In this document: one piece after another, positions 2,157 to 64,000 of the stretch
Layout of the letters: each line of letters begins with the position of its first letter
Numbering within the stretch: position 1 is the first letter of the stretch
NCBI GenBank assembly: GCA_964403585.1
Contig: CAYOFQ010000002.1
Span: 5,667-69,666, forward strand
Length of the DNA: 64,000 nucleotides
Direction of reading: 5' to 3'
DNA from: an uncultured Gammaproteobacteria bacterium
Lineage (GTDB): Bacteria > Patescibacteriota > Microgenomatia > JALYQM01
Made by a program: the position numbers and the translations under genes
Notes under the pieces: generated by a model
Databases searched by the model: none
What the model saw: the letters and a program-made list of their open reading frames with translations, nothing else
What the model was told of the DNA's origin: nothing

Positions 2157-3326
2157 CTAAACATCTAGTTCCCCTCTTAACAACTTAGGCAGCAAGATGT
2201 CTTTCAATGAAATTAATTCATTATTTTCAACTTCTAACAGTTGAATCTTATGTTCTATACCTCCTGCAATTATTTCAAACTTTGAGATTAACTCTTCTGG
2301 AGGTAATATAACCTTTATATTTTCTAATTCACTTTTAGTAACAGCAGCAAAGATAGAACCAGATCCAAAACTATCTTCTTTTTTAAATACATTTCTTAGT
2401 TGGTAAAACAGAAAACTCTGGCTACCATTTTTATTTCGAACAGATGCTAGGCCTCGACCTAAGGACAACTCTCTATCAGCAATGTTCAGTCTTCCAACAG
2501 GGGCACGCACACTCAATAAAATATCTCCTTTTGCAGCTTTTCTCGGATTATTTGTACAGAAAATTTTATGAGTAGGATAACGCCGTCCAAAATAAGTAAC
2601 TCCCTGATGAAAAGGAAGACCCTTACCTTCTATGTTATAGTCTTCAGATGGTGGAGATTGACCCATTATAATATCTGCTACTTCAGCAAGAGTAGTTAAC
2701 CTCCACGTAGACTCAGACAAGACCTTATTACCTTGAATCATAAACCATTCTTTATAAACTAATTGGGCAACAAGTTCCAGCTTTTCTACAATTTTATTAT
2801 TTAGTACGATTTTTTCATCTAGTCTTGAAATTATCGAAGATATTTTAGACTGTATTCTCAAATTTTCAGGATACTTAATCAATATTTGCCTCAACTCAGC
2901 TTGCCTTATTCCTTCTGCAGCAGTTCCGCTCAATCTCTTAAGTAATTCATGTCTCCCCTCAGCTCCCTGAAGGTAATAGTATAAGTACTTAGGATCCAAT
3001 TTAGTTTTATCAGTCCTTAGTCCAAATAGCCTTTGGCTTAAAACAAGATCTTTTTTTTCAGCTAAATAATATATCTCACCTAAAGGCGCTTCTGATGTTA
3101 ACAAAATATCCCCTGCTTCAAGCTTTTCAGGCATCCACTTCTCATATAAATCCGAACTAACATACCTTATATCATCATGATTGACTATTCTACCTGTCTT
3201 AATATTTTTAGCAGATATCGCTGGAATGCCTTTACTCGACCAATCACCTCCTAATTTTTTAGGAGTTAAACCTCTATGATCAATTATCAATTCCATTAGA
3301 TTATCAAGTCTATCTTGTTTCCACAT
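2157..3326 (-). CDS. hsdS: Type I restriction-modification specificity subunit HsdS
   Basis: 389 aa with two target-recognition-domain halves. C-terminal conserved helix ISLKDILLPKLLRGELDV is typical of HsdS. It is positioned between hsdM and hsdR on the same strand. Confidence 0.85.
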   Translation of the reverse strand: MWKQDRLDNLMELIIDHRGLTPKKLGGDWSSKGIPAISAKNIKTGRIVNHDDIRYVSSDLYEKWMPEKLEAGDILLTSEAPLGEIYYLAEKKDLVLSQRLFGLRTDKTKLDPKYLYYYLQGAEGRHELLKRLSGTAAEGIRQAELRQILIKYPENLRIQSKISSIISRLDEKIVLNNKIVEKLELVAQLVYKEWFMIQGNKVLSESTWRLTTLAEVADIIMGQSPPSEDYNIEGKGLPFHQGVTYFGRRYPTHKIFCTNNPRKAAKGDILLSVRAPVGRLNIADRELSLGRGLASVRNKNGSQSFLFYQLRNVFKKEDSFGSGSIFAAVTKSELENIKVILPPEELISKFEIIAGGIEHKIQLLEVENNELISLKDILLPKLLRGELDV

Positions 3327-3401
3327 ATACTAAACCCTTATTAAATTTGACTTATATCCACATTTTGCATATAATTAACATATAACGATGACTGGATAAG
3401 C

Positions 3402-3914
3402 CTAAGGTTTCGACCGACCGCTGATGCCAGTCGTTTTTTTGACATATTTTAAGCTCATTTTGAGCTTATCCAACGTTACTATATATTGAGCATACTTTCT
3501 CAATAAACTGGAATAATGCCTATTAGGCGTAATTACCTTCAAAAGCTTATTCTTACCAACTAAATGCTCAACTAAACAGTGAAAATCTCCATCATTAGAT
3601 ACAATTATCGCCTTTTCATAGTTTTCAAGCTCAATCATAGTATGTAAAACAAGCTCAGCATCAACATTCCCCTTCACAACTCCAGTTTTCAAAGTTAAGG
3701 TAGGCTTCAAAATGACTATATACCCCATCTCTTGTAAATGTGTATAAAGCTTTTCATTATCAGCTTTAAATCCGATAAAAACAAATGCTTTTTCGATCTT
3801 ATATTTATTTTTTAGATACTGACGAAACTTTCGCCAATCCAATTCCCAACCTTCAGATCGAACTCCTAAATTGAGATTTTGGCTATCTATAAATGCATAA
3901 TTCTCTTTACTCAT
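3402..3914 (-). CDS. NYN/LabA-like (PIN-fold) predicted nuclease inserted in the R-M operon
   Basis: 170 aa. Motifs AFIDSQNL (N-terminal Asp) and DAELVLHTM...IIVSNDGDFHCLVEHL match the NYN-domain acidic core. Its start overlaps the hsdM stop (3911-3914). Confidence 0.65.
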   Translation of the reverse strand: MSKENYAFIDSQNLNLGVRSEGWELDWRKFRQYLKNKYKIEKAFVFIGFKADNEKLYTHLQEMGYIVILKPTLTLKTGVVKGNVDAELVLHTMIELENYEKAIIVSNDGDFHCLVEHLVGKNKLLKVITPNRHYSSLLRKYAQYIVTLDKLKMSLKYVKKTTGISGRSKP

Positions 3915-5704
3915 AACTCAAATCCTAAAGTTTTCAAATTCTTTCGTATCTCTTCTTCTAGTTGTCTCGATTTAGCAAAGTCAGCAGATAAACTCTTCGT
4001 CAACTCCGACATTTTTTCTTCATATGAAATACCGTCATCTTCTTCCTCCGCAATCTCAACATATCTCCCTGGAGTCAACACATAACCATTTTCAGCAATC
4101 TCAGAAAGAGTTACTGATTTACAGAACCCAGCTACGTTCTCATAAGTACCCACTTCACCTCTCCAAGCTCTCACAGTATCAGCAATCTTCTTAATTTGCT
4201 CATCATTAAATATCACTTGCTTCCTCGAAATTTGCTCGAATAGATCCTTGGCATCAATAAACAACGTTTCTCCAGCTCTATTTCGAAACCTTCCAGAAAC
4301 TTTATTCTTAGTCATAAACCACAAAGAAACAGGGAGTGAAACATTATAAAATAGTTTAGGAGGGCAAGCGATAATAATATCAATAAGGTCATCATCGATC
4401 ATCTTCTTACGGATTTCCCCTTCTTTACCACCTACAGCTAATGCCCCGTTAGCCATAACAAAACCAGCCATACCATTGGGAGTTAAATGATGCAAAAAAT
4501 GTTGAATCCACATAAAGTTAGCATTACCGGATGGAGGCGTTCCATATTGAATTCTCGGATCTTTTTCATCTAGTCGATCAGGGTTCCACTCAGCATTAAA
4601 AGGAGGGTTACAAATTTCGAGATCTACCTTTAAGTCGGAAAATTTGTCATCATAATAAGTATTTCCAAGTTCAATCTTTCCATAAATGCCTCTAATCGCT
4701 AAGTTCATTTTACATAACTTAAGAGTAGTTTGATTACTTTCTTGACCATAAATCGCAATCTTTGTAGGGTCTTTATGATGTTCTCGTAAAAATTTACTCG
4801 ACTGAACAAACATACCACCCGATCCACACGCAAAATCCGCAACTCTACTATTTTCAAAAGGTTCAAGCACTTCGACCAAAACCTTAACTATTGAGCGAGC
4901 AGTAAAAAATTCACCTCCACGCTTACCTTCTTCTGAAGCAAACTGACCTAAGAAATATTCGTAAACCCTACCCAATAAATCTTTTTCTTTTTCAATGTCG
5001 TGATCAAAGTTAATTCTAGAAAATATATTTACCAATTCTCCGAGGATGTGACTGTCAAGGCCCACACGAACGTAACTTTTGGGAAGTACCCCAGTAAGCT
5101 GTTCAGGATTATCTTTTTCTATAGCATCCATAGCTTCATCAATGTATTTCGCGATATCACTTGAAGTAGCCTTTGAACGCAAGTATTCCCATCGAGCAAT
5201 TTCTGGTATAAAGAAAATTCCTTTACTTTTATACAAGTCTTTTTCCTCTAGCATTTTCTCTCTTATTTGAGGATCCGGAACATACTCAGGTCTACTAGAA
5301 TCAGCCATAAATTCGACTAATTCATCCCGCCTTTGATAATAAGTGTCGGTAATGTATTTAAGGAATATAAGGCCCAAAACAATATGCTTATAATCGGAGG
5401 CATCAATTGAGCCACGCAGCTTATCTGCAGCGGACCAAAGATCATTCTCAAAATTTATATCTTTGTCCTTATTGATCTCTTGAGTAAGTCTTTTTGCCAT
5501 TTTGGCTGTTTCTAACTGAGCAACACTCACTCTAGATTGAAGTTCACTTGGCAAAGTATCCACTCGAATAAGGTATTTCTTACCTACCTCTTTGATTAGC
5601 ACCTCTCCAGCCTGTATTTTACCTTGTAACTGTTTTTGTATAGCTTGTCGCGACACACCAAGTATCCGTGCAAGGTCATTAATGGTGATATATTTTTCTT
5701 CCAT
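3911..5704 (-). CDS. hsdM: Type I R-M N6-adenine DNA methyltransferase HsdM with extra N-terminal HTH domain
   Basis: 597 aa. HsdM_N-like region NDLWSAADKLRGSIDASDYKHIVLGLIFLKYI, motif I FACGSGGMF and motif IV NPPF (EICNPPFNAEW). The first ~85 aa, ITINDLARILGVSRQAIQKQLQ, form a MerR/excisionase-type helix-turn-helix that canonical HsdM lacks. Confidence 0.9.
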   Translation of the reverse strand: MEEKYITINDLARILGVSRQAIQKQLQGKIQAGEVLIKEVGKKYLIRVDTLPSELQSRVSVAQLETAKMAKRLTQEINKDKDINFENDLWSAADKLRGSIDASDYKHIVLGLIFLKYITDTYYQRRDELVEFMADSSRPEYVPDPQIREKMLEEKDLYKSKGIFFIPEIARWEYLRSKATSSDIAKYIDEAMDAIEKDNPEQLTGVLPKSYVRVGLDSHILGELVNIFSRINFDHDIEKEKDLLGRVYEYFLGQFASEEGKRGGEFFTARSIVKVLVEVLEPFENSRVADFACGSGGMFVQSSKFLREHHKDPTKIAIYGQESNQTTLKLCKMNLAIRGIYGKIELGNTYYDDKFSDLKVDLEICNPPFNAEWNPDRLDEKDPRIQYGTPPSGNANFMWIQHFLHHLTPNGMAGFVMANGALAVGGKEGEIRKKMIDDDLIDIIIACPPKLFYNVSLPVSLWFMTKNKVSGRFRNRAGETLFIDAKDLFEQISRKQVIFNDEQIKKIADTVRAWRGEVGTYENVAGFCKSVTLSEIAENGYVLTPGRYVEIAEEEDDGISYEEKMSELTKSLSADFAKSRQLEEEIRKNLKTLGFEL

Positions 5705-5776: not shown

Positions 5777-6469
5777 CTATTCGTCCACTCTCACCTCGTT
5801 CACCACATCATAATATGCATGCAAATACGAATTCTCCAACACCTCGCACTTCACCAACCGCAACGGTCGCACCTTCAACAAATCCACCTGCGTATGAAGC
5901 GACTCTCCATCCACCAACGTCGACGTATCCTTACCACCCACCAACACCGCCGCAATCACCACCGAAACATGATCAATCAGTCCTCGCCGCACCCATTCCG
6001 CATTCAACGTTCCTCCCGACTGAATCGTAATCCGATCCACCCTATACTCACGCTTAAGTTTCTCCATTAACCCAGCCAAATCCACTTCACCGTCATAAAA
6101 TAGAATCTCAATATTCGAATATTCCTGCTTCACCTTAAAAGCCGGATGATTTTTATTCGTCGTCACCAAATACAACGTCTTCACCCACTGCGCCAAATAC
6201 GCCACACCCTTTTCATTTAAATGAGGCTTATTATCCAGGATAATAAAACTACAATCAATTTTCTTCGGCGGAGTCGTTCGCTCATTCACCCCAATCTTCG
6301 CCATCACCCGCCCTGTATTTAACGAAAACAAATCCGTCTGCTTCTCCAAGTCATAGTACTGCTGTAACCCTTCCTTAACCCCCACAATCCGCTTAAAATC
6401 CTTATCTACATCCAACTCGTCTACATCCCCGGTGGAAATCTTTCCATCCATGTGATACACAATAATCAT
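5777..6469 (-). CDS. Dihydrofolate reductase-like / RibD C-terminal domain family protein
   Basis: 230 aa. C-terminal ITIQSGGTLNAEWVRRGLIDHVSVVIAAVLVGG resembles the RibD_C NADPH-binding core. Confidence 0.55.
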   Translation of the reverse strand: MIIVYHMDGKISTGDVDELDVDKDFKRIVGVKEGLQQYYDLEKQTDLFSLNTGRVMAKIGVNERTTPPKKIDCSFIILDNKPHLNEKGVAYLAQWVKTLYLVTTNKNHPAFKVKQEYSNIEILFYDGEVDLAGLMEKLKREYRVDRITIQSGGTLNAEWVRRGLIDHVSVVIAAVLVGGKDTSTLVDGESLHTQVDLLKVRPLRLVKCEVLENSYLHAYYDVVNEVRVDE

Positions 6470-8609: not shown

Positions 8610-9038
8610 TTATGCCACATGCTTCTTCATATACTCATATGCCGACCTGATTATCGATTCCAAAACCGCCAAATCCACATCCGAAAGCTTATTAATATAC
8701 AAACATCCACCCATTCCGCTACCGCTCGTTTTATGTTTGCCTAATTTCTCCAAAGCCGGATTATCGTGATTCCCTTGCAACACATACAACGTTAAGTTCT
8801 GCTTCCGCGGCGAAAACCCCACCAACATCCAATCCCCTTCCTGAGCACTTCGTTCGGATTTATAATGATACTTTCCAAACCCTACAATACTCGTTCCCCA
8901 CATCACCGCTTTTTCTCCGGTAACTTTTTTGAACATTTCCAACAGCGCCAACGCATCTTCACGCTTCTGCTGCGGCTCAACGGAATTCAAAAACTCTTTT
9001 GGATCTTGATCGGTAATTTTCGTTTTAGGTTCGGCCAT
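8610..9038 (-). CDS. DUF1801 (YdhG-like) family protein
   Basis: 142 aa with DUF1801 core GKYHYKSERS...LGKHKTSGSGMGGCLYINKLSDVD. A paralog lies at 14774-15205. Confidence 0.6.
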   Translation of the reverse strand: MAEPKTKITDQDPKEFLNSVEPQQKREDALALLEMFKKVTGEKAVMWGTSIVGFGKYHYKSERSAQEGDWMLVGFSPRKQNLTLYVLQGNHDNPALEKLGKHKTSGSGMGGCLYINKLSDVDLAVLESIIRSAYEYMKKHVA

Positions 9039-10115: not shown

Positions 10116-11567
10116 ATGAACGAATTAGTTCGGGAAATTGGATATGCACTCCACAGCAGGATAGCGGTGGAAACCCGCCGCGCCCTGGCGCCTAATCAAA
10201 CTCCGGGGCCTCGGAAACTTAATCCGCTACTCGGATGTTTACCGGAAGTCAGCACAGGACTTCTTGAATATATAGATACCGTCGCGCATCAGTTTCCTGA
10301 AATAGCGTTCTATCATGCCGGCGCTGCTATCTGTCAGGTTACCGATCCTGGGTTGGTGCGGCAAGTGTTGGCAGTGCAGCACGAAAAAACCCAGGCCATA
10401 GTTTTCCCGCGCACGGCCATGCGTTCCACCTTAGGCGAAGGAGTATTATTTAGCCAGGGCACCAAATGGCGCAACTCCCGCGAAGCAATGCAACCACAAT
10501 TTCATCACGGGAAACTGGAAAATTTCGCCGATATTGTCCACTCGGTATTGGATGAAACAGTCGACCAACTCAAATCATACCAAGAAACCGGCGCTACCTT
10601 TGACCTTAACAACGCCATGTCCGAAATGACTTTAAAAATCGTTCTGCGATCACTCTTTTGTCAGGACCTACCGCTGCAGGATTACCGTTCCATCATCGAC
10701 TTCACTATTAGATACAACGAGCTTTTTGTAGATACCCTCACTAAATCTCCTCTCTCACTTGTCAATCTGTTACTGGACAACAAATGGGACAAAAACGTCC
10801 GCAAGCTTCACGATATCGTCGAACAGGCAGATATCATTTTCGACCGGCTTATCGATCACCACCTCGAATATCCGCCCGGAACCTTTGACGACCTCTTATC
10901 ACTATTTATGAATATTCAATTTGAAGGACAACCAAACACACGAGAACAAGTCAAAAACGAAATCCGCACCTTCATACTCGCCGGGCACGACACCTCTGCG
11001 CGAGGTTTAACCTGGCTCTGGTACAACCTTTCTCAAAAACCGGAATGTATCGCCAAACTAACAGGTGAATTACAAGCCACCGGTAAAAACGCGCGCGAAT
11101 TAGGTCCGCATGATCTCAGAGAACTTCCGTACCACCGTGCCACCATTGAAGAAAGCCTGCGACTACACCCGCCTTCTTGGGTAAATTTACGCATGGCCAA
11201 AGAAAACCTGGCCCTAAAAAGTTCGAGCGGTAAGGATTATTTCGTCCCGCGGGGTACATACATTATTGTCAGTCCGTATGGCACCCACCGCAGCCCTGCG
11301 TATTGGGAAAATGCCGAACAATTCAATCCGGAAAGATTTCTTCTGCCGAATAGAAAAACAATCCACCCCGGCGCCTTCTTTCCGTTTGGCGGCGGTCCTC
11401 GTCATTGCATTGGCCAGGGCTTTGCTATGACGGAAATGCAGTTAGCAGTAGCACGACTTAATTCCGAATTTGCTATTCAAATAATTACCGGAGAAGTTGA
11501 ACCAATGGCCTCACTTGTGCTTCGAGCTAAAAACCCCATTATGGCTAAAGTAACACAAAAAGAATAA
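10116..11567 (+). CDS. Cytochrome P450 monooxygenase
   Basis: 483 aa. Heme-binding loop FPFGGGPRHCIGQGFA, I-helix AGHDTSA, ExxR motif ESLRLHPP and an N-terminal PGPRKLNPLLG. Confidence 0.9.
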   Translation: MNELVREIGYALHSRIAVETRRALAPNQTPGPRKLNPLLGCLPEVSTGLLEYIDTVAHQFPEIAFYHAGAAICQVTDPGLVRQVLAVQHEKTQAIVFPRTAMRSTLGEGVLFSQGTKWRNSREAMQPQFHHGKLENFADIVHSVLDETVDQLKSYQETGATFDLNNAMSEMTLKIVLRSLFCQDLPLQDYRSIIDFTIRYNELFVDTLTKSPLSLVNLLLDNKWDKNVRKLHDIVEQADIIFDRLIDHHLEYPPGTFDDLLSLFMNIQFEGQPNTREQVKNEIRTFILAGHDTSARGLTWLWYNLSQKPECIAKLTGELQATGKNARELGPHDLRELPYHRATIEESLRLHPPSWVNLRMAKENLALKSSSGKDYFVPRGTYIIVSPYGTHRSPAYWENAEQFNPERFLLPNRKTIHPGAFFPFGGGPRHCIGQGFAMTEMQLAVARLNSEFAIQIITGEVEPMASLVLRAKNPIMAKVTQKE

Positions 11568-11611: not shown

Positions 11612-14203
11612 ATGCTTAAGCGACTGCTCACTTTTCTACTGCTTCTATCACTCTCGATATTTATTTTTCCGGGCAAAGTCCACGCGGCGTATTCCCTTGC
11701 TGGAAGCAACTCCTTCACCGGAACCAGCAGCGTCGCCATGCCAATTACAGATTTACAAATTAGTGGCACCGGTACCGAACCAATCAATGTAAAACTATTA
11801 GTTACCAGTGGAACACTTTCCATGTCTACCACCACCGGACTTACCTTCGATGGCAGCTCCAGCGGTTCTACAATCTATTTCAGCGGAACACTTACCAATA
11901 TCAATAACGCCTTAGCAACACTCACCTACACCAGAGCTTCAACCGGAACTGATACACTCGAAGTGTCACTGGTCCCGCGCGGTGAAGTTTTTTTTACAGA
12001 CAATAACCACTTATATAAATTTATCTCCGGAACCATCACCGCCAACAGTGCCCGTACCTCAGCCGCAGCACAAACCGCATACGGGGCCACCGGCTATCTT
12101 GCCACTATCACCTCCCAAGCCGAAAACGATTTCGTTGCAAACCGTCTCCAGGGTGATGGGTGGATCGGTGGCAGCGACGCCACTTCTGAAGGCACTTGGA
12201 AATGGATCACTGGACCTGAAACCGACACAACCTTCTGGTCTGGCGCATCAGGTGGAAGCACCGTAGGTGGCAATTACGCCAACTGGGCCTCCGGCGAACC
12301 AAATGACTGGGGTGGCAACGAAGACTGTATCCAGTTTTATATCACCAGCCGCAACTGGAACGATCTACCTTGCACTGGAAACACCCTTTCCGGGTATGTT
12401 GTCGAGTTTGGAGCACCGGGAGATCTACCCAGTGTCGTCGCCAAAAATATTTCTATCACTACCAGTAACGCACCAACCGTGAACACCTTCAGCCCTCTGG
12501 ATAACGCTACTAATATTTCCACCACCTCCAACCTTACATTGACGTTTAATCAAACTATCACTAAAGGTACGGGGAATATTCTCATTAAAAAAACTTCCGA
12601 CAACTCCACCGTTGAAACCATCGATGTCACCAGCTCGCAGGTTACCGGCCAAAGCACCAGCACTATTACTATCGACCCAAACACTACACTCGATGAAAAC
12701 ACCTCCTATTACATCACTATCCCAAATACCGCTTTTAAAAATGGCAGCAACGCGTTTTATACCGGCATCTCCACAACTACTGGCTGGAATTTTACCACCG
12801 GAGATTTCACTAACCCCGGCTTAAGCAGCATAACTGCCACATCAATTTCTAATTCCGGAGCAACTATCACCTGGGCGTCTACCGAGAGTTCGTCATCCCG
12901 GGTAACCTACGGACTCACGACATCATACGGCACTCAAACCTCCGAAACAGATACCTCTCCACGCGTCACATCTCATTCAGTTGCATTAACCGGTTTACTC
13001 GCCTGCACGACCTATCATTACACTGTCACATCACGCGATGCTTCCTCAAATAGCAGCACTTCCTCAGATAATTCATTTACTACCACCGGCTGTGAGGCTA
13101 GCCAAACTCCAGTCGACACCAACACCGAAACCATAACTACAACAACCGGCGGAACAACTACTCTTGAGGAAAACAACAACGAACTGACCGTCCAGGCACC
13201 GGGCAATTTCACTACTGCCGCATCGTCGGTTGTAATCCAAATCAAAGCAGTCGAAAGTTCACCGGTATTAAGTGCAACCGGTAAACCAACCGAAGTCCCC
13301 TTACCGGTCGGCAATATCGTCTTCGATGTTAAAGCCATTATTAATGGAACAACCGTGTTAGATTCATTTGATCAACCGGTCACGATCACCTACCACTATA
13401 CCGATGCAGATATCGTTGGCATCAAAGAAGAAACGCTCAGACTGTATCATTACCACAATAACACCTGGGAAGAACTCGACTCCTGTTATGTTAACCAGAC
13501 TACCAACACCATTTCCTGCACCACCGACAGTTTCTCAATTTTCGCGCTGTTTGGGAAATCCATCAACAGCCCAACCGCTCAAGTTGCTACAACCAACAAC
13601 GGTCCGGCCACATGCGGCTCATCCGTTCCGTCTACGCCCACACTATTTCAAATTGACGCAGCTCAAACCCAAGCCAAGGTATACCTCTCACCCGTTAGTA
13701 ATCCGGTTACCAACTACTTTATTTCCTACGGATACTCACCAAACGAAGAACGCTTTGGCACCTTCACCAACCTAAACCAGTCTACGGGAGTTCTTTCATA
13801 CACCGTCAACTTTTTAAGTGCCAACACCACCTACTATTTCAAACTACGCGCCTACAACGACTGCATGCCGGGCAATTGGAGTAACGAGATGAAGATCACC
13901 ACCCATAAACGCTTATCCGGCAGCACCGTGTACTATAAAAACTCACCCACACACACGCTCTCGGTTTTCCCCAGCCCGCTCAAAAACATTCCCTCCGTTC
14001 TCATATCGCAAAACAACACCTCCCGCATTCTCGGAGCTACAACCGGCACTACCTGTGAATATACTGTCCAATCGGGTGATTCACTCTGGACCATTGCATC
14101 CCAAAAACTCGGTGCCGGCTGGAAATACCAATCGATCATGGAGCAAAACAATTTAAATTCTACTTTCTTGAAGACAGGCTCCGTCTTAAGAATTGGCTGT
14201 TAA
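11612..14203 (+). CDS. Large secreted surface protein with C-type lectin, Ig-like/FN3 and C-terminal LysM domains
   Basis: 863 aa with signal peptide MLKRLLTFLLLLSLSIFIFPGKVHA. CTLD core is WIGGSD...EGTWKW...GEPND...EDC. The FN3-like segment is ATITWASTESSSSRVTYG...YHYTVTSRD. LysM is YTVQSGDSLWTIASQKLG...GSVLRI. Confidence 0.75.
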   Translation: MLKRLLTFLLLLSLSIFIFPGKVHAAYSLAGSNSFTGTSSVAMPITDLQISGTGTEPINVKLLVTSGTLSMSTTTGLTFDGSSSGSTIYFSGTLTNINNALATLTYTRASTGTDTLEVSLVPRGEVFFTDNNHLYKFISGTITANSARTSAAAQTAYGATGYLATITSQAENDFVANRLQGDGWIGGSDATSEGTWKWITGPETDTTFWSGASGGSTVGGNYANWASGEPNDWGGNEDCIQFYITSRNWNDLPCTGNTLSGYVVEFGAPGDLPSVVAKNISITTSNAPTVNTFSPLDNATNISTTSNLTLTFNQTITKGTGNILIKKTSDNSTVETIDVTSSQVTGQSTSTITIDPNTTLDENTSYYITIPNTAFKNGSNAFYTGISTTTGWNFTTGDFTNPGLSSITATSISNSGATITWASTESSSSRVTYGLTTSYGTQTSETDTSPRVTSHSVALTGLLACTTYHYTVTSRDASSNSSTSSDNSFTTTGCEASQTPVDTNTETITTTTGGTTTLEENNNELTVQAPGNFTTAASSVVIQIKAVESSPVLSATGKPTEVPLPVGNIVFDVKAIINGTTVLDSFDQPVTITYHYTDADIVGIKEETLRLYHYHNNTWEELDSCYVNQTTNTISCTTDSFSIFALFGKSINSPTAQVATTNNGPATCGSSVPSTPTLFQIDAAQTQAKVYLSPVSNPVTNYFISYGYSPNEERFGTFTNLNQSTGVLSYTVNFLSANTTYYFKLRAYNDCMPGNWSNEMKITTHKRLSGSTVYYKNSPTHTLSVFPSPLKNIPSVLISQNNTSRILGATTGTTCEYTVQSGDSLWTIASQKLGAGWKYQSIMEQNNLNSTFLKTGSVLRIGC

Positions 14204-14755
14204 TACTTTAAAAGTAATGCTTGTTCTCATCGCAGTAGTTTGTTCTACCTTAATTCTCTCGAGCCGTATCTTATCCGCATCGAGGTTATCTAACAATCGA
14301 AGTCCTTTGCCAATCAAAACCGGCATAATATCTACCGACAATTCATCACATAATCCCGCATTGAGACATTGTCGGATCGTATCCGGCCCACCGATTACCT
14401 GAACCATTTTTTCTCCGGCAGCTTTCCTTGCTTTTGCCACAGCACTTTCAATACCATCCGAAACAAACGTTACGCTCAGTCGACCATTTCCTTGAGGATA
14501 CTTTTCAGGAGGAGTATGCGTTAAAATAAACAGCGGAACCTGAAATTCATAATCATCATTAATCCATTCAAACGGATCGGCCATTTCATATACATGCCTG
14601 CCCATTACCACTGCACCGGTGTTTGCAATCATCTCTTGGAATGAATGAACAGTATGCAACTCTTCAAAGTCAGTATACAGTCTATCTACACTGCCGTTAC
14701 TGTCCTGAACAAATCCGTCCAGTGACATCGTCATACCTGCAACTACTTTACTCAT
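14186..14755 (-). CDS. Dihydrofolate reductase family protein (RibD_C domain)
   Basis: 189 aa. MSLDGFV...VMGRHVYE...PLFILTHT...VIGGPDTIRQCLNAGLCDEL..VLIGKGLRL. Confidence 0.7.
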   Translation of the reverse strand: MSKVVAGMTMSLDGFVQDSNGSVDRLYTDFEELHTVHSFQEMIANTGAVVMGRHVYEMADPFEWINDDYEFQVPLFILTHTPPEKYPQGNGRLSVTFVSDGIESAVAKARKAAGEKMVQVIGGPDTIRQCLNAGLCDELSVDIMPVLIGKGLRLLDNLDADKIRLERIKVEQTTAMRTSITFKVLTANS

Positions 14756-14773
14756 AGAGGAATTATACCAAAG

Positions 14774-15205
14774 TTAGGATTTCCACAATATGCGGTCAAT
14801 CGGACCTTTTTGGGACTGTAACTTTATATTCTCATACGACTGCCGCACAATTTGTTCAAGTACTGTCATATCAACATCGCTAAGTCGTTTAATATAAATA
14901 CAATATCCGGTAAGAGTGTGCTTCCCCAACTTCGCCAGTAACACCGAATAACGTGCAGTCCCATCCATCAGGTAAATAGTAATCTTCCCTTTGCGTGGAT
15001 AAAAACCAATCACCAGAGCATCACCTTCCCGGCCACTGTCATATTTGTAATGATACGTATCGAAACCGAGAGTTCCTTCATTCCATTTTTGCGGGATATG
15101 TCCACTTATTCGCTGCATCATCGCCAGTAATTTATGACTGTCTTCAATAGTTTGCGCATCGGTAAGTGAATCAATATAATCTGCAACTGAGCTGTCAGAT
15201 TTCAT
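14774..15205 (-). CDS. DUF1801 family protein (paralog of 8610-9038)
   Basis: 143 aa. GFDTYHYKYDSGREGDALVIGFYPRK...LGKHTLTGYCIYIKRLSDVD. Confidence 0.6.
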   Translation of the reverse strand: MKSDSSVADYIDSLTDAQTIEDSHKLLAMMQRISGHIPQKWNEGTLGFDTYHYKYDSGREGDALVIGFYPRKGKITIYLMDGTARYSVLLAKLGKHTLTGYCIYIKRLSDVDMTVLEQIVRQSYENIKLQSQKGPIDRILWKS

Positions 15206-15395
15206 GTATTAGTTTTCCTTTCGTGTCATACTTCATCCACGGTTTCGCCAATTTTCCCGCCACAAAATATCCCGTCTTTAGTTTAGTTGCATCCCTGCGA
15301 TACCATTTCCAATACCCTTCACGTTTTCCATCTTTAAGCTTTCCTATTGCATGAATTGATCCATCTGAATAATACGTAACACTGGAAATCTTCAT
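15195..15395 (-). CDS. MORN-repeat (YwqK-like) small protein
   Basis: 66 aa. YYSDGSIHAIGKLKDGKREGYWKWY is a MORN repeat variant. Start and stop overlap the neighbours, so it is part of the operon. Confidence 0.5.
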   Translation of the reverse strand: MKISSVTYYSDGSIHAIGKLKDGKREGYWKWYRRDATKLKTGYFVAGKLAKPWMKYDTKGKLIHEI

Positions 15396-16000
15396 AAGAC
15401 ATTGTATCTGATATGTGTCACAAAGCTGGTTCCACTCACTTCAATTGGTTCAAGTTTAAGATTAGGCACTCCTTCGAAAAGTCGTGACCCTGTTCCGATC
15501 GTTACCGGCACAATATGTAACCACAGTTCATCAATAAATCCGCCGGCCAAATATTGATTTATCGTGCTCGCGCCTCCCATAATCTTAACATTCCTATTCC
15601 CGACAGCCTCTTTAGCCTGTGTGAGAGCCGACTCAATACCATCAGTTACAAAGAAAAATGTCGTTCCACCTTCCATATTAATCGGTGCACGCGCTTTATG
15701 AGAAAGCACAAACACCGGAGCATGGTACGGAGGATCGTCACCCCACCACCCCTTCCATTCAGGATTATCACGTCTGTCACGAGGCCCAAACATGTTACTC
15801 CCCATAATAAACGCACCCGCATCAAGAATAGCGTCAATTTCTTTGGTATGTTTATGCTTTTCGGGTTCGGCAAACATCCAGCGATCAAGTAAATCGGCGT
15901 CAAAATTATCTCCAAACGGGTGTTCAAAACTCTGGTTCACACCGGCGCCAAACCCGTCCAAAAAAATAGTCAACCCTGCAGTAACTTTTGTTTTATTCAT
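15392..16000 (-). CDS. Dihydrofolate reductase family protein (RibD_C domain), second paralog
   Basis: The track ORF runs to 16051. The likely start is MNKTKV at 16000, which overlaps the upstream stop by ATGA. Motifs FLDGFGAG..., VFVLSHK..., IMGGASTINQYLAGGFIDELWLHIVPVTIGTGSRLF. Confidence 0.7.
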   Translation of the reverse strand: MNKTKVTAGLTIFLDGFGAGVNQSFEHPFGDNFDADLLDRWMFAEPEKHKHTKEIDAILDAGAFIMGSNMFGPRDRRDNPEWKGWWGDDPPYHAPVFVLSHKARAPINMEGGTTFFFVTDGIESALTQAKEAVGNRNVKIMGGASTINQYLAGGFIDELWLHIVPVTIGTGSRLFEGVPNLKLEPIEVSGTSFVTHIRYNVL

Positions 16001-16440
16001 AATTCTTGAGCTAGCCCAATGAGAATTCCTTCGGGTCCACGGATATAACAAAGCCGATACGAATGCTCATATTGGACCACTTCACCAACTAGCTGTGCAC
16101 CTTTCTTCTGAAGTCTTGTTAAAGTATCGTCGATATCCTGTACAGTAAACATAACCCGCAAGTAACCAAGCGCATTTACTGGAGCATTCCGATGATCGGC
16201 AATAACAGACGGAGCAATAAAACGCGAAAGCTCCAGGCGACTATGCCCGTCCGGGGTAACCATCATCGCAATCTCTACTCGCTGATTACCCAAACCCGTC
16301 ACTCTTCCGGCCCATTCACCTTCTACCATACCGCGTCCTTCCAGTGTCAGACCGAGTTCGGTAAAAAAGGCAATCGCCTCATCGAGAGACTCCACAACAA
16401 TACCGACGTTATCCATCCGTTTCAAGTTAGATGCGCTCAT
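15997..16440 (-). CDS. VOC/glyoxalase family protein
   Basis: 147 aa. MDNVGIVVESLDEAIAFFTELG...GPEGILIGLAQ is glyoxalase/bleomycin-resistance-like. Confidence 0.65.
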   Translation of the reverse strand: MSASNLKRMDNVGIVVESLDEAIAFFTELGLTLEGRGMVEGEWAGRVTGLGNQRVEIAMMVTPDGHSRLELSRFIAPSVIADHRNAPVNALGYLRVMFTVQDIDDTLTRLQKKGAQLVGEVVQYEHSYRLCYIRGPEGILIGLAQEL

Positions 16441-18094: not shown

Positions 18095-18404
18095 TATTTT
18101 TCCCTTTCTTAGCTAAGACTGCTTGCAGCGAAAGTGCTACCGCTTTGTCTTAAAAGACCCTTAATACATTCGAATTTAATCAAATGCATAAAGGGTCTTT
18201 CATTACTAAGAAAGAAGATAAACTACATATTTTGAGGAAGATATAAGCTAAAAAGCTAATCCTCGTGTTGTAAAAGAACACTTATGAGCTCAATTGAGCT
18301 CAATCTTAATTACATTCATAAGTTCAATTTGAGCTTAGAGTATAACTAAGATATGTTTATTATATCACAAAATAGGGAAAAAGTAAATTACTATAGGTTA
18401 TTTG
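18095..18404 (-). promoter_or_regulatory. Promoter-leader module copy L5 (CCTATAGTA box, TATAAT, perfect GAGCTCAATTGAGCTC palindrome, TTTTACAACACGAGG box, structured 3' leader)
   Basis: Minus strand reads aaCCTATAGTAatTTACTT...gaTATAAT, then a leader with the 16-bp perfect palindrome at 18286-18301 and two strong hairpins before the RBS. It begins 1 nt after the tRNA 3' end. Confidence 0.45.
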
Positions 18405-18681
18405 CTCCCCGACTAGGATTCGAACCTAGAACCTTCTCGTTACATGAACCCCACAAGTTTCCTAGTGGCATGGACTATCTCATCACCATACTTAAAAAGC
18501 ACAGGTGTCAGGCGTATAGTCTCTGAACCTTCAATACGCAAGAAGCGTAAAGCTTGGCTGCGGATTACCATAATCTTTCGATCGTAGGCTTCCCGACAGT
18601 TAACCCAATTTTCACTTCAGGATTTCTCCAGAAGGCTGCATCAATCTACAGCGAGCCGCTCTACCGTTGAGCTATCAGGGA
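18405..18681 (-). tRNA. tRNA-Asn(GUU) interrupted by a group I intron (exons 18648-18681 and 18405-18442)
   Basis: 5' half UCCCUGA-UA-GCUCAACGGUAGAGC-G-GCUCG-CUGU. 3' half UAACGAGA-AGGUU-CUAGGUUCGAAUCCUAG-UCGGGGA-G. The acceptor stems pair (UCCCUGA/UCGGGGA). Spliced anticodon loop is CUGUUAA, class I variable loop, discriminator G73, no encoded CCA. Confidence 0.65.
18443..18647 (-). ncRNA. Group I intron (IC3-like, Azoarcus/cyanobacterial tRNA-intron type), 205 nt, no ORF
   Basis: 5' exon ends in U. IGS GCAG pairs with the exon CUGU. P2 is CUUC-U-GGA-GAAA-UCC-U-GAAG. The core shows extended identity to the Azoarcus pre-tRNA-Ile intron as recalled from memory (UAUGGUAAUCCGCAGCCAAGCUU...UUGAAGGUUCAGAGACUAUACGCC...CACCU). 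The intron ends with omega-G (CAUG|UAACGAG). Confidence 0.65.
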
Positions 18682-20206: not shown

Positions 20207-20524
20207 TTAACTGTTCTTAATTTTTTCTTCAATGTGATCCATTGTTTGTAAAAAAGCTTTTTCGATATCAATGTTGTAGCGCTTTGAAAGCACCAACACA
20301 CACCACAAACAATCTGCCAGCTCATGGGCCAATCGCTCATCTATATTTTCAAGTTTACGCACACCCTCTTTCGCCATGATTACTTCCATTAATTCACCAA
20401 TATCCGCCACAAACCCTTCCATAATATTGAGGTTAGTCCACGGAGTCCCCGACCGTTTTAACTCCAACTCCGAATACTTCTCCCGAATCTCAATCGCCCG
20501 CGCAGCTAAATCTTTAATGTCCAT
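20207..20524 (-). CDS. MazG-like nucleotide pyrophosphohydrolase
   Basis: 105 aa. EGFVADIGELMEV and ELADCLWCVLVLS match the MazG/YpjD EExxE/D motifs. SD AGGAGG 4 nt before the ATG. Confidence 0.65.
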   Translation of the reverse strand: MDIKDLAARAIEIREKYSELELKRSGTPWTNLNIMEGFVADIGELMEVIMAKEGVRKLENIDERLAHELADCLWCVLVLSKRYNIDIEKAFLQTMDHIEEKIKNS

Positions 20525-20625
20525 ATGCCTCCTATAAAAAATGAGAGCTATCTGCTAGATAACTCTCATTGTACTACGCTATAGAATGTTCAGTCTCCTG
20601 GAAATATTTTCCTGAGCTTAGGTTA

Positions 20626-20711
20626 TTCAGCGACATTCTTTGCCATACCTTAGCGGCAAAGCATAGGTTTAAAGGCTGAGACAAAGTCGAAGCGTTAACC
20701 GTGTCGCTGAA
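20626..20711. repeat. Conserved structured intergenic element, copy X1 (10-bp outer inverted repeat TTCAGCGACA/TGTCGCTGAA, inner hairpin CTTTGCCataccttagcGGCAAAG)
   Basis: Homologous to 63721-63833, sharing TTCTyTGCCATACCTT...GGCArAGCA.AG.TTTAAA.GC...cGTGTCG. It lies between the rpoD stop and the mazG-like start. Confidence 0.5.
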
Positions 20712-20732
20712 TACCCAAGCGAAGGGAAGAAC

Positions 20733-41452: not shown

Positions 41453-42019
41453 ATGAGAAATACTCGTAAAACGCCCAACACTACTTGTGCTTACTGCCAA
41501 ATTCCTTTCTATAAAAAACCTTCAGAAATAAAAAAATATAAGCACACCTTTTGTTCGACTAAATGCTATGGAAAGTTTAGTAGCCACCCCTTAACTTGCA
41601 TTATCTGCGGAAAAGAATACCCAAGAAAATTTCACAAAAAAACCTGTAGCCGCAGCTGCGCTAATAAGCACCGAAGTGGAATAAAATATAAAGTAAATCG
41701 ACCAAGAGACAAAGTCGCTTACTCAACAGGGCTTAAAATACGCTTATTATCTGAAAGAGGCTCATCATGCCAAAGATGTAATTTCCCAAAAACAGAAATT
41801 TTAATTGTTCACCATAAAGACAGGGATAGGACCAACAACAACCTGAAAAATTTGGAGCTTATTTGCCCAAACTGTCATGCTGAAGAACACTATCTAGAAA
41901 AAAACTGGCTAAAAAGATATAATGTTCAGGAATTTAAAGAAAAGCTCCTTTTGAAAGAATCTGCTTACTTTATCTATCGTACGGAGAGGTCGCCTAGTGG
42001 TTTATGGCAGAAGTCTTGA
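41453..42019 (+). CDS. HNH endonuclease with N-terminal Cys-rich zinc ribbon
   Basis: HNH core ILIVHHKDRDRTNNNLKNLELICPNCHAEEH, plus multiple CxxC pairs N-terminally. The ORF's last ~12 codons run into the tRNA-Ser(UGA) gene, so the true C-terminus may be slightly shorter. Confidence 0.65.
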   Translation: MRNTRKTPNTTCAYCQIPFYKKPSEIKKYKHTFCSTKCYGKFSSHPLTCIICGKEYPRKFHKKTCSRSCANKHRSGIKYKVNRPRDKVAYSTGLKIRLLSERGSSCQRCNFPKTEILIVHHKDRDRTNNNLKNLELICPNCHAEEHYLEKNWLKRYNVQEFKEKLLLKESAYFIYRTERSPSGLWQKS

Positions 42020-42069
42020 AAACTTCCAGGTGATGAGCCTCGTGGGTTCGAATCCCACCCTCTCCGCCA
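41983..42069 (+). tRNA. tRNA-Ser(UGA), CCA encoded
   Basis: GGAGAGG acceptor, anticodon arm GAAGU-CUUGAAA-ACUUC, long variable arm, T-arm GUGGGUUCGAAUCCCAC, 3' CCA present. Confidence 0.85.
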
Positions 42070-54998: not shown

Positions 54999-55021
54999 AA
55001 AAACATCAAAAGAAAATGATG
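54999..55021 (-). terminator. Intrinsic terminator immediately 3' of ssrA (CAUCA-uuuucuuu-UGAUG-UUUUU)
   Basis: 5-bp stem plus a U5 run on the minus strand. A second overlapping hairpin gives it bidirectional character. Confidence 0.5.
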
Positions 55022-55455
55022 TGGAGATGCCGATCTATGAAATCGGGTCTGGAATCTGTAATTAAAAACATCTACATAGCATAGTCGGTACTTATATCTC
55101 GTACCACAACGATCCTACCGACAGGAGAAGTGATACAAAGGTCAAAGTCTTAAAGGATTACAGCGACCACCCCGAATCCTCGCATACAATCTTTGTTTAC
55201 GCCCTACTCCGCTCGATTGTAAAATCAGAATAGAACGTCCATTGTTTAGCTAAAGAAAAGTTTAGCCAAATGCAGGATAGCTAACGCCTGCTACAGCGTT
55301 ACCCAAGCCGAAGTTTGGGAACTTTGCAGCGATTTTGTCAGCTATTGATGTAGAAGAATCTGCATCTATATTTTAGTCCCGTTTTTACGACTCTTGAGAC
55401 CATCGTCGGCTATGCAGTTTTTAAAGAGCACATCCCATCGAAACAACACATCCCC
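55022..55455 (-). ncRNA. ssrA: tmRNA (SsrA)
   Basis: 5' end GGGGAUGUGUUGUUUCGAUGGGAUG matches the canonical GGGGcUGauucuggaUUCGAcGGGAu. 3' end ...CCGAU-UUCAUAG-AUCGG-CAUCUCC-A forms a T-arm and an acceptor strand pairing with the 5' GGGGAUG. A candidate tag ORF begins after the UAG at ...AAUAGCUGAC... and ends at the UAA inside hairpin GCUAAAcuuuucUUUAGC. It is divergent from smpB. Confidence 0.6.
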
Positions 55456-55910
55456 ATGAGATTTTATGTTAAGACTAGTGCTTAACAAGACTGAATTATA
55501 ACACATTTTAAGCCATTTTTCCAGTAAAATAAACCTGCCAAACCGCTAATAGCAGAGCAAAGCTTTAAACGCAAGCAGAGCGAAGCCTTAATCGTATCAC
55601 TGGCAAGCTCGACAAGAAGGGTATAATTACCCTGTTGACATACATACACTAATGATATAACATATAAATATACTTACAGTATAACAGTCATCACTCGCTG
55701 TAAGTGTTCCTTAAAAATTCCTTTTCTGATTTCGTCGCAGACCCCGGGATCATATAAAAAGGGCACAATACATGTCCTGTCAGTATCTCATTATAGGTGC
55801 CGCTAAATTGGATAAGGAATTTATGAATAAACCCGTCTTTGAAACATAAGGCGGGTTTATTTTTATGCAAAGCCTTTCTCCCTTTACCCCTACACTGGTA
55901 TAATACGCTC

Positions 55911-56354
55911 ATGAAATCACTCGTCTACAACAAACGAGCCAAATTCGACTATTTTCTGGAAGACAAATACGAGGCAGGTATGGTACTTACCGGAGGAGAA
56001 GTCAAATCGATCCGGGAAGGCCGTGCAAGCCTCCAGGATAGCTTTGTGCGGGTTAAAAATGGTGAGGCTTACCTATTGAATGCCTTTATTAATCCCTACA
56101 GCTTCGCCGATAACAGAAACCTCGATCCACGCCGGGAACGCAAACTGTTACTCCATAAAAAACAAATCAACGAACTGATGGCTAAAAGTAATGGCAAAAA
56201 TACCACCATAGTTCCCGTTTCTTTCTACAACAAGAACAACACCATTAAAGTAGAGATCGCCATTGGTAAAGGTAAGAAACAATACGATAAACGCGCCGCT
56301 ATCAAGAAACGCGACTTAGATAAAAAAATCCAGCAGGAAATGAGGATTAGATAG
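55911..56354 (+). CDS. smpB: SsrA-binding protein SmpB
   Basis: The track ORF starts at 55839. The likely start is MKSLVYNKRAKFDYFLEDKYEAGMVLTGGEVKS at 55911, with TATAAT 8 nt upstream (leaderless). C-terminal basic tail KKQYDKRAAIKKRDLDKK. Confidence 0.9.
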   Translation: MKSLVYNKRAKFDYFLEDKYEAGMVLTGGEVKSIREGRASLQDSFVRVKNGEAYLLNAFINPYSFADNRNLDPRRERKLLLHKKQINELMAKSNGKNTTIVPVSFYNKNNTIKVEIAIGKGKKQYDKRAAIKKRDLDKKIQQEMRIR

Positions 56355-63646: not shown

Positions 63647-63672
63647 AACTCAAAAACAAAATAGAGTTAAAA

Positions 63673-63702
63673 ATACCGGTCTTTATGACCGGTATTTTTT
63701 TG
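63673..63702 (+). terminator. Rho-independent terminator ATACCGGTCtttatGACCGGTATttttttt
   Basis: Perfect 9-bp stem plus a T7 run, 25 nt after the last pilin-like gene. Confidence 0.8.
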
Positions 63703-63720
63703 CATAAAGTAATATTTTTT

Positions 63721-63833
63721 ACGAGTCATAAGTGTAAGACGACCTTCTCTGCCATACCTTGAACGGCAGAGCAGAGCTTTAAATGCCAATAAGTAAAGGC
63801 ATTAAGCGTGTCGTCTTACACTTATGACGAGTA
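63721..63833. repeat. Conserved structured intergenic element, copy X2 (19-bp outer inverted repeat, inner hairpin CTCTGCCataccttgaacGGCAGAG)
   Basis: Outer arms GTCATAAGTGTAAGACGAC/GTCGTCTTACACTTATGAC. The core is homologous to X1 at 20626-20711. Confidence 0.5.
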
Positions 63834-64000
63834 GGATTAATTTAAAGCGGTATCGTCACCGGCAACCAATAGGCAAAGAAAGCAAAATAGGCAATAAAAA
63901 ACAGTGCCGTTAATTTCCAGTCACAGTATTTGAAAAGATAATAGCAAGTTAAAAGCAAAATAAAAGGAAACGCCGGAACATAATAAAAAGAATATTGAAC

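What the first reader, a model, noticed from the sequence alone, without database searches (positions are those of the whole stretch)
20626..20711. Conserved ~85-nt structured repeat present at least twice (X1 here, X2 at 63721-63833)
Both copies have the same architecture: long outer inverted repeats (10 bp and 19 bp), and an inner hairpin CTyTGCCataccttRRNcGGCArAG with a nearly identical loop. The 3' half, AGCA.AG.TTTAAA.GC...GCGTGTCG, is also conserved.

Both copies sit just beyond gene ends (rpoD/mazG junction and the pilin cluster), where terminators would sit. This could be a novel small RNA, a REP/MITE-like element or a shared terminator module.
Basis: seen in the sequence. Interest (0 to 1): 0.55.

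Follow-up and report, generated by a model that had tools for sequence, protein, structure and literature searches.

The report
Small structured intergenic repeat family
A roughly 90-base DNA element that folds into a three-armed hairpin occurs three times in this 64-kb stretch of an ultrasmall (Patescibacteria) bacterium; it is missing from the same spots in close relatives, so it behaves like a small, lineage-specific dispersed repeat rather than a conserved regulatory RNA.

Summary
X1 (20625-20712) and X2 (63722-63831) share a 75-nt core (77% identical) that folds as a three-way junction, P1/P2/P3. P1 is unrelated in sequence between copies but perfectly paired. I found a third, decayed copy (X3, 55518-55606) between ssrA and smpB. 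An intact copy sits at the orthologous site in a relative (L034). Flanks are unrelated, so this is not a segmental duplication. No Rfam family matches. Exact-pattern scans of GTDB genomes, JGI metagenomes and viral contigs gave only chance hits, and phage and plasmid searches gave none. About 135 kb from related genomes holds no copy. In syntenic relatives the X2 site is empty: a 59-nt gap against 195 nt here. The three intact copies have 79 Watson-Crick pairs and no G-U pair. One intact copy lies in a probably untranscribed spacer between divergent promoters. My best reading (about 0.5) is a narrow-lineage, REP/MITE-like structured repeat gained and lost at the DNA level. It is atypical because its closing stems are not conserved in sequence. 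A functional 3'-UTR RNA remains possible (about 0.3), because X1 and X2 lie between a stop codon and an intrinsic terminator. Terminator and riboswitch readings are poorly supported. Interest is moderate to low.

The parts
20618..20719 (.). X1, an intact copy. P1 is 20625-20634 / 20703-20712, with an imperfect extension to about 20621 / 20716. P2 is 20638-20644 / 20655-20661, with loop ATACCTTAGC. P3 is 20666-20669 + 20672-20677 / 20691-20696 + 20697-20700. It starts 13-17 nt after the rpoD stop codon (20733, minus strand) and lies upstream of the MazG-like gene (20207-20524, minus).
   Evidence: gene context
63716..63835 (.). X2, an intact copy. P1 is 63725-63743 / 63810-63828 (19 bp perfect, plus imperfect outer pairs 63722 / 63831). 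P2 is 63747-63753 / 63765-63771, with loop ATACCTTGAAC. P3 is 63776-63779 + 63782-63787 / 63798-63803 + 63804-63807. It lies between the terminator of the last T4SS-pilin-like gene and the stop codon (63842-63844) of a convergent PMT-like membrane-protein gene.
55518..55606 (.). X3, a decayed copy in the same orientation as X1 and X2. It lies in the spacer between the divergent ssrA (tmRNA, 55019-55455, minus) and the smpB-side promoter. A deletion of about 39 nt relative to the intact orthologue in L034 removed the original left P1 arm. Only 18 of its 27 model pairs are Watson-Crick.
   Evidence: tmRNA; SmpB; promoters
20540..20570 (-). A canonical intrinsic terminator (14-bp stem plus T run) 47 nt downstream of X1 on the minus strand, immediately before the RBS and ATG of the MazG-like gene. 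It is a separate feature, not part of X1.
   Evidence: sequence
63669..63699 (.). A bidirectional intrinsic terminator (13-bp stem with an A run before and a T run after) between the pilin-like gene and X2. It is separate from X2. An equivalent terminator is present in relatives that lack X2.

Best explanation
X is a low-copy, lineage-restricted family of non-coding, structure-forming intergenic repeats in a Microgenomates-like Patescibacteria genome. It is the functional analogue of REP/BIME, ERIC or MITE-type small repeats.

Each copy has a conserved core of about 75 nt, made of two hairpins (P2 and P3) plus junction bases. A perfectly complementary stem (P1) closes the core, and its sequence is private to each copy.

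Copies are gained and lost at the DNA level in permissive intergenic gaps, either just after stop codons or between divergent promoters. They decay once damaged.

**Shown:** dispersal to unrelated loci; an empty site in syntenic relatives; a decayed copy beside an intact orthologue; pairing kept by double changes; absence from known RNA families.

**Inferred:**
- The unit is recognised or propagated as a folded single strand. Hairpin-dependent, single-stranded-DNA transposition, as in REP/RAYT or IS200/IS605 derivatives, is the nearest precedent. This would explain why structure is conserved but terminal sequence is not.
- Alternatively or additionally, intrastrand templated repair (quasi-palindrome correction) keeps the arms perfectly complementary.
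- Where a copy lies in a 3' UTR (X1, X2), the transcript will fold into the same three-way junction and probably impede 3' exonucleases, as REP elements do. I treat that as a by-product.
For: - **Dispersal.** There are three co-oriented copies in 64 kb, in unrelated contexts. Their flanks do not align. They are the only non-tRNA dispersed repeat found in the window.
- **Empty X2 site.** Syntenic relatives (L031/L032 = GCA_030154765.1 and GCA_030855825.1, and L033) keep the order phytase / ssrA-smpB / SpoIID / pilins / PMT but have no X in 20 kb. At the X2 site their gap is 59 nt, terminator only, against 195 nt here.
- **X1 is not conserved with rpoD.** rpoD relatives at 82-92% identity have other genes or 16-90 nt gaps after rpoD, and no X.
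- **Decay next to an intact orthologue.** X3 has a deletion of about 39 nt and 9 of 27 pairs not Watson-Crick (3 G-U wobbles and 6 mismatches). The orthologous copy in L034 is intact.
- **Probably untranscribed location.** X3 and X3b lie between two divergent promoters whose motifs recur in the relatives read (the TGTGTTATAAT extended -10 for ssrA; TTGACA-17-TATAAy on the other side). They are therefore probably not transcribed, yet X3b keeps the full fold.
- **No G-U pairs.** The three intact copies have 79 Watson-Crick pairs in 80 scored cells and no G-U pair. Folding is equally good on both strands and with DNA parameters. This fits DNA-level symmetry better than RNA-only selection.
- **Narrow range.** Exact core patterns gave only chance hits in GTDB species representatives, JGI metagenomes and IMG/VR. 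blastn against phages and plasmids found nothing. Rfam has no match.
Against: - The terminal stems are not conserved in sequence between copies (P1 10/20 identical against core 50/65). No known transposase-driven MITE behaves this way.
- A TA dinucleotide flanks X1 and X2 but not X3b. Because TA is self-complementary, it cannot be told apart from stem extension.
- No transposase, RAYT or other candidate mobilising gene is in the window. Pfam was run on 58 of the 63 selected ORFs, and stored Pfam tables covered four more.
- Copy number is known only for 64 kb. The rest of the genome could not be read.
- Double compensatory changes in P2 and P3 (12 of 27 pairs), the conserved loop motifs, and the placement of X1 and X2 between a stop codon and a terminator are equally what a selected RNA would show.
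- The empty site could be a deletion in the relatives rather than an insertion here.
Confidence: 0.5

Rival explanations
1. X is a functional structured RNA read on the minus strand. It would be a three-way-junction module placed in 3' UTRs between the stop codon and the intrinsic terminator. It could protect the upstream mRNA from 3'-to-5' decay, bind a protein, or be released with the terminator as a 3'-UTR-derived small RNA. A P2-loop / P3-loop contact (AGGU with ACUU) would stabilise the fold, as in purine-riboswitch-type junctions.
For: - X1 starts 13-17 nt after the rpoD stop and is followed 47 nt later by a terminator.
- X2 starts 10 nt after the stop of the PMT-like gene and is followed 20 nt later by a terminator. 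Both are therefore certainly transcribed on the minus strand.
- Pairing is kept through double changes in all three helices, including between species: 12 of 27 pairs changed on both sides, 93.5% of cells paired against 38-48% for slid controls.
- The P2 loop motif A-GGUAU and an ACUU in the otherwise variable P3 loop are present in all three intact copies (alignment). They pair with one G-U on the minus strand but would mismatch (C-A) on the plus strand.
- In the decayed X3, all three one-sided changes are G-U on the minus strand.
Against: - There is no G-U pair in 79 pairs of the intact copies.
- X3 and X3b lie upstream of both flanking promoters, and no promoter is predicted for any copy.
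- X is absent from orthologous 3' UTRs in close relatives.
- The loop-loop pairing shows no covariation, and 4-5 bp between two loops of 11-15 nt is expected by chance fairly often (my estimate).
- There are only four sequences, from two organisms.
Confidence: 0.3
2. X1 is the sensor domain of a riboswitch or attenuator that controls read-through of the terminator at 20570-20540 into the MazG-like nucleotide pyrophosphohydrolase gene.
For: - On the minus strand the order is X1, then a 47-nt linker, then a 14-bp terminator with a U run, then the RBS and ATG of the MazG-like gene. No promoter is predicted in between, so MazG expression needs read-through.
- The three-way junction with conserved junction bases resembles small aptamers.
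Against: - X2 is followed by a terminator and then the antisense of a pilin gene.
- X3 and X3b are followed by the ssrA promoter. Three of four copies therefore have no gene to regulate.
- Relatives that keep rpoD with a downstream MazG-like gene show a different arrangement (NUDIX gene in between), and X is not conserved with the gene.
- I could not identify a convincing alternative antiterminator pairing.
Confidence: 0.05
3. X is a shared, factor-independent transcription terminator module.
For: Very stable hairpins sit just beyond gene ends.
Against: - No T/U run follows P1 on either strand in any copy. The terminator scan does not call X.
- Separate canonical terminators sit next to X1 and X2, and they persist in relatives that lack X.
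- X3 and X3b are not at a gene end.
Confidence: 0.04
4. The similarity is chance, or the by-product of a larger segmental duplication.
For: None beyond the small number of copies.
Against: - Model matches have E-values from 1e-20 to 1e-29.
- Flanks are unrelated.
- There is a third copy, and a copy in another organism.
Confidence: 0.01

Closest known systems
REP/BIME elements of Enterobacteria and Pseudomonas, and their REPIN doublets mobilised by RAYT (Y1) transposases
   Same: - Short, non-coding, structure-forming repeats confined to intergenic regions, often between a stop codon and a terminator.
- Presence/absence between relatives.
- Structure matters more than exact sequence.
- When transcribed, they form stable 3' hairpins.
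   Different: - REPs are single imperfect palindromes of 20-40 nt with a conserved head (GTAG-type). They occur in hundreds of copies, and the arms are what is conserved.
- X is a three-way junction of about 90-115 nt in which the inner core is conserved and the closing arms are not.
- Copy number appears low.
- No RAYT was seen in the window.
Bacterial MITEs such as Correia/NEMIS (Neisseria), RUP (Streptococcus pneumoniae) and ERIC/IRU (reviewed in PMC3184786)
   Same: - Size of about 100-150 bp.
- Long terminal inverted complementarity, intergenic location and hairpin-forming transcripts.
- Insertion polymorphism.
- TA next to the ends of X1 and X2, as for TA-duplicating MITEs.
   Different: - MITE terminal inverted repeats are conserved across copies because a transposase binds them. 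X copies share only the innermost CGAC/GTCG.
- TA is absent at X3b.
- No parent insertion sequence (IS) was found.
IS200/IS605-derived palindrome-associated elements (PATEs), moved as single-stranded DNA by hairpin recognition
   Same: - Two conserved subterminal hairpins (here P2 and P3).
- No need for terminal inverted repeats or target duplications.
- Strand-specific orientation. All window copies are co-oriented on a stretch with uniform GC skew.
- A short motif (YGAC) lies immediately 5' of the conserved core on the minus strand in the three intact copies; the decayed X3 has TGAT.
   Different: - PATEs do not have complementary flanks. The P1 stem of X is unexplained by this model.
- No TnpA or TnpB gene was found.
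- With n = 3, co-orientation has p = 0.25 by chance.
- This is a resemblance in logic only, not a tested membership.
Three-way-junction aptamers with kissing loops (purine riboswitch class, Rfam RF00167)
   Same: - Architecture only: a P1 closing stem of free sequence and two hairpins of about 7 bp.
- Conserved junction bases, and a possible loop-loop contact.
   Different: - No sequence or model match.
- Not placed in 5' UTRs.
- P3 is bulged and longer.
- No associated gene set.

Membership tests
MITE (miniature inverted-repeat transposable element) | Terminal inverted repeats conserved in sequence among copies of the family | tested here: not met
   The P1 arms are ATTCAGCGAC (X1), GTCATAAGTGTAAGACGAC (X2) and CTTTGTGGTG (X3b). 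P1 columns are 9-10 of 19-20 identical, against 42-50 of 65-66 in the core.
MITE (miniature inverted-repeat transposable element) | Target-site duplication of fixed length flanking every copy | tested here: inconclusive
   TA flanks the repeats of X1 (20624-20625; 20712-20713 region) and X2 (63720-63721; 63832-63833). It does not flank X3b. TA is self-complementary, so it cannot be separated from stem extension.
MITE (miniature inverted-repeat transposable element) | A related autonomous IS with matching ends in the same genome or lineage | not testable with these tools
   No transposase domain was found among the ORFs covered: 58 of the 63 selected window ORFs by Pfam and four more by stored Pfam tables. 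The rest of the genome could not be fetched.
REP / REPIN | A 20-40 nt imperfect palindrome with conserved arm sequence, present in tens to hundreds of copies, with a cognate RAYT gene | tested here: not met
   The unit is a 90-115 nt three-way junction with non-conserved outer arms. There are 3 copies per 64 kb. No Y1 transposase domain is in the window. Genome-wide copy number is unknown.
Any Rfam 15 RNA family | Covariance-model score at or above the family's gathering threshold | tested here: not met
   No match overlaps X at gathering thresholds. With E up to 10 on the two loci, only hits to the neighbouring terminator hairpins and noise appeared.
Intrinsic (Rho-independent) terminator | A G+C-rich hairpin immediately followed by a U/T run | tested here: not met
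   P1 is followed by CCCAAG / AACCTA (X1) and TAGGAT / TAAAAA (X2). The scan calls only the adjacent separate terminators.
Riboswitch / cis-regulatory 5' leader | Located in the 5' UTR of the genes it controls, with a recurrent gene association | tested here: not met
   Only X1 has a downstream gene in either orientation. X2 faces a terminator and an antisense gene. X3 and X3b precede a promoter. The element is not conserved with rpoD or mazG in relatives.
Structured functional RNA in general | Pairing maintained by covariation, typically including G-U intermediates, on one defined strand | tested here: inconclusive
   12 of 27 pairs change on both sides, and 0 of 500 shuffles reach the observed value on four of the five measures (41 of 500 for further pair types). 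But the intact copies have no G-U pairs, and both strands fold equally well. There are only four sequences.

The most novel reading that the evidence does not exclude
X may be a previously undescribed kind of small element whose propagated unit is only the conserved two-hairpin core. In this reading, the perfectly complementary closing stem is generated anew at each insertion, for example by a snap-back or template-switch step, or by insertion at hairpin tips. Alternatively, X may be a new class of three-way-junction RNA with a loop-loop contact that Patescibacteria place in 3' UTRs. Either would be new for a phylum in which almost no non-coding elements are characterised.
Probability: 0.15. 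Interest if true: 0.65.

Novelty: new variant of a known kind. Interest (0 to 1): 0.38.

Why it matters
Patescibacteria genomes are tiny and gene-dense, and very few non-coding elements have been described in them. A dispersed structured repeat that comes and goes between close relatives shows that even these genomes carry selfish or co-opted intergenic DNA. It also gives a marker for strain-level genome dynamics.

The unusual anatomy (conserved core, private closing stem, no G-U pairs) is a concrete puzzle about how such elements are copied. If the closing stem is made during insertion, that would be a mechanism not covered by current MITE or REP models.

Practically, the covariance model built here could be used to annotate these elements and avoid mistaking them for terminators or small RNAs.

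Tried and rejected
- **Rfam.** I searched the whole window at gathering thresholds and both loci at E up to 10. Nothing overlapped X.
- **Pattern scan of GTDB genomes.** CCATACCTT-N6-14-GCANAGNTTTAAA gave 10 hits. All were chance, in coding sequence of unrelated taxa with no hairpin.
- **Pattern scan of JGI metagenomes.** One chance hit. An earlier viral scan gave 6 chance hits.
- **blastn against phages and plasmids.** Nothing.
- **Extending the source genome.** I tried via proteins at the window ends. Only short Logan contigs of the same strain came back, adding fewer than 100 new bases.
- **Orthologous X1.** I looked downstream of rpoD in relatives. It is absent and gene order differs. Two relatives had no retrievable DNA.
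- **The 175-nt ssrA-smpB spacer of L031.** I tested whether it is a diverged X. It has no model hit and does not fold better than shuffles (z = -1.1 to -1.4).
- **Insertion into a pre-existing hairpin.** I rejected this for X2, because the whole P1 plus core is missing from the empty site in L031.
- **Hammerhead, twister and other small ribozyme cores.** I compared them by eye. The junction strands (AC / UnUG / AAK on the minus strand) do not fit, and Rfam agrees.
- **Third copies of the P1 arm sequences.** I searched the window for copies that would indicate duplication from nearby flank. There are none.
- **A mobilising gene in the window.** None was found.

Full report
**1. The observation**

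They align over a core of about 75 nt:

CGAC-nTTCTyTGCC-ATACCTTnnn-GGCArAG-CAnAGsTTTAAAnGC...GCnTTAAsCGTGTCG

The core is 50/65 identical. The closing stems share only the innermost CGAC/GTCG, with 10/20 identical. The flanks do not align.

- X1's closing stem is 10 bp: 20625-20634 with 20703-20712.
- X2's is 19 bp perfect: 63725-63743 with 63810-63828. That sequence occurs nowhere else in the window.

Both copies fold far better than their shuffles, at z = -6.3 and -11.1. The conserved "3' half" is itself a bulged hairpin, so the element is a three-way junction:
- P1: free sequence, 10-22 bp.
- P2: 7 bp, with a conserved loop.
- P3: 4 + 6 bp, with a two-base bulge inside the conserved TTTAAA / TTAA.

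**2. More copies**

A covariance model built from the pair (R1) was run with filters off over the window. It found a third copy at 55518-55606 (23.4 bits, E = 2.6e-4). Its sequence GCAGAGCAAAGCTTTAAACGC is nearly identical to X2.

A three-sequence model (R2) found nothing further in the window. X3 lies between the tmRNA gene (55019-55455, minus) and smpB.

Fetching relatives through SmpB homologues gave L034, whose SmpB is 90% identical. L034 carries an intact copy at the same place and in the same orientation (60 bits, E = 2.7e-13; fold). The spacer alignment shows that the flanks are orthologous. It also shows that the window's X3 lost about 39 nt, including its original left P1 arm. X3 is therefore a decaying relic: 18 of its 27 model pairs are Watson-Crick.

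**3. Where it is not**

*Databases.* Rfam has nothing here. Exact core patterns gave only chance matches in one genome per GTDB species, in JGI metagenomes and in IMG/VR. These scans required exact matches to patterns drawn from X1 and X2, so diverged members would have been missed. blastn against phage and plasmid collections found nothing.

*Organism.* It is a Microgenomates-like member of Patescibacteria. Its rpoD is about 70% identical to Daviesbacteria and Curtissbacteria, with unnamed relatives at 82-92%.

*Relatives.* About 135 kb from relatives holds no copy.
- After rpoD, relatives have other genes or gaps of 16-90 nt.
- Two NCBI MAGs and one Logan contig (L031-L033; SmpB 87% identical) keep the local gene order phytase / ssrA-smpB / SpoIID / pilin cluster / PMT-like gene. 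At the X2 site they have only pilin stop, terminator, 6 nt and the PMT stop, a 59-nt gap against 195 nt here.
- Their ssrA-smpB spacer holds an unrelated, unstructured 175 nt.

X is therefore present or absent between close relatives.

**4. Context and strand**

All three window copies point the same way, on a stretch with uniformly negative GC skew.

Read on the minus strand:
- X1 begins 13-17 nt after the rpoD stop codon. A canonical terminator (20570-20540) follows 47 nt later and abuts the RBS of a MazG-like gene.
- X2 begins 10 nt after the stop codon of a PMT-like membrane protein. The bidirectional terminator 63699-63669 follows 20 nt later.

Both copies are therefore transcribed as 3' UTR. 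X3 and X3b, by contrast, sit between two divergent promoters whose motifs recur in the relatives read (the TGTGTTATAAT extended -10 for ssrA; TTGACA-17-TATAAy on the other side). They are probably not transcribed. No promoter is predicted for any copy.

**5. Structure statistics**

On the four-sequence alignment, 93.5% of cells are paired, against 31-48% for slid partners. Twelve of 27 pairs change on both sides. No shuffle (0 of 500) reaches the observed value on four of the five measures; 41 of 500 do for further pair types.

Between species, P2 changed from CUCUGCC/GGCAGAG to CUUUUUC/GAAAAAG. P3 changed from AUGCC/GGCAU to AUUCC/GGAAU.

The alignment was fitted to the model, and the sequences are few and related, so this shows maintained pairing, not its cause.

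The three intact copies have 79 Watson-Crick pairs and one C-C mismatch in 80 scored cells, with no G-U pair. Both strands fold equally well with RNA or DNA parameters. From my own knowledge, structured RNAs usually carry several percent G-U pairs. At 5-10%, zero in 79 has a probability of about 0.02 down to 0.0002.

This symmetry fits a constraint acting on DNA, through single-strand hairpins on either strand or quasi-palindrome correction. It fits RNA-only selection less well.

The only strand hints favour the minus strand:
- The three one-sided changes in the decayed X3 are G-U on that strand.
- A conserved AGGU in the P2 loop could pair with a conserved ACUU in the P3 loop, with one G-U.

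Neither hint is statistically strong.

**6. Interpretation**

The best fit is a lineage-restricted, structure-forming dispersed repeat that is gained, lost and degraded at the DNA level. It is akin in behaviour to REP/BIME, ERIC and MITEs (review: PMC3184786).

It fails the defining MITE test, because its terminal repeats are not conserved. It also fails the REP definition on size, architecture and conserved arms. It is therefore a variant, not a member of either.

The logic of hairpin-recognising single-strand transposition (IS200/IS605-type or RAYT) would accommodate three features: conserved inner hairpins, free terminal sequence, and co-orientation. But no such gene is in the window, and that model does not explain P1.

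A selected 3'-UTR RNA remains a serious rival. X1 and X2 are ideally placed for one, and the pairing is actively maintained.

The riboswitch reading is weak: X2, X3 and X3b have no gene to control, and X is not conserved with mazG. The terminator reading is also weak, with no U run and separate terminators nearby. Chance and segmental duplication are excluded.

**7. Limits**

- Only 64 kb of the source genome could be read. The Logan contigs of this strain are short and identical to the window.
- Genome-wide copy number, target preference and the mobilising function are therefore unknown.
- The direction of the X2 indel (insertion here, or deletion in the relatives) is inferred, not shown.

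Noticed in passing
window 55635-55866 (+); also L031:9752-9962, L034:325-532, L035:20-232: A conserved unit of about 190 nt has its own conserved TTGACA-17-TAtAAy promoter and an intrinsic terminator (about 55822-55866). It lies directly upstream of smpB (true ATG about 55911) and divergent from ssrA. RNAalifold on four relatives gives 57 pairs, including G-U pairs and 5 compensatory pairs. No Rfam family matches except terminator-like noise. It is a candidate unannotated small RNA next to the trans-translation genes. The 73-aa ORF at 55691-55912 (-) is probably spurious.
   Followed up: partly
window 18404-18681 (-): A tRNA-Asn(GTT) gene is interrupted by a 205-nt group I intron (Rfam Intron_gpI, 79.7 bits). 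A standard ARAGORN run missed the tRNA, which was found only with the intron option. This matches the recent description of group I introns in tRNA-Asn and tRNA-Asp genes of Patescibacteria (PMC13011429).
   Followed up: partly
window 1-64000: GC skew is very strong and uniformly negative (-0.12 to -0.27 in 8-kb windows) across the whole window, although genes are split about evenly between the strands. It recalls the strand composition disparity reported for a Microgenomates genome (PMC7143001, seen by title and abstract only).
   Followed up: no
window 20540-20570 (-) and 20525-20535: A strong intrinsic terminator ends 5 nt before the Shine-Dalgarno sequence of the MazG-like gene, and no promoter is predicted between rpoD and that gene. 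MazG expression seems to depend on terminator read-through.
   Followed up: partly
window 10116-11567 (+): A full-length cytochrome P450 (Pfam E = 1.9e-74), unusual for a reduced Patescibacteria genome. Nearby are three RibD_C-domain and two DUF1801 paralogues (5777-6469, 8610-9038, 14186-16051).
   Followed up: no
window 41453-42019 (+) and tRNA-Ser 41983-42069 (+): The 3' end of an ORF with an HNH endonuclease domain overlaps the start of a tRNA-Ser(TGA) gene. There are four tRNA-Ser genes in the window, and three of them share near-identical segments (repeat families D1 and D2).
   Followed up: no
window 2157-5704 (-); 61364-63646 (+): Type I restriction-modification genes hsdS and hsdM with a NYN-domain gene between them. 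Separately, a tandem cluster of five small T4SS-pilin-like (PF18895) genes, conserved in order in the relatives L031-L033.
   Followed up: no
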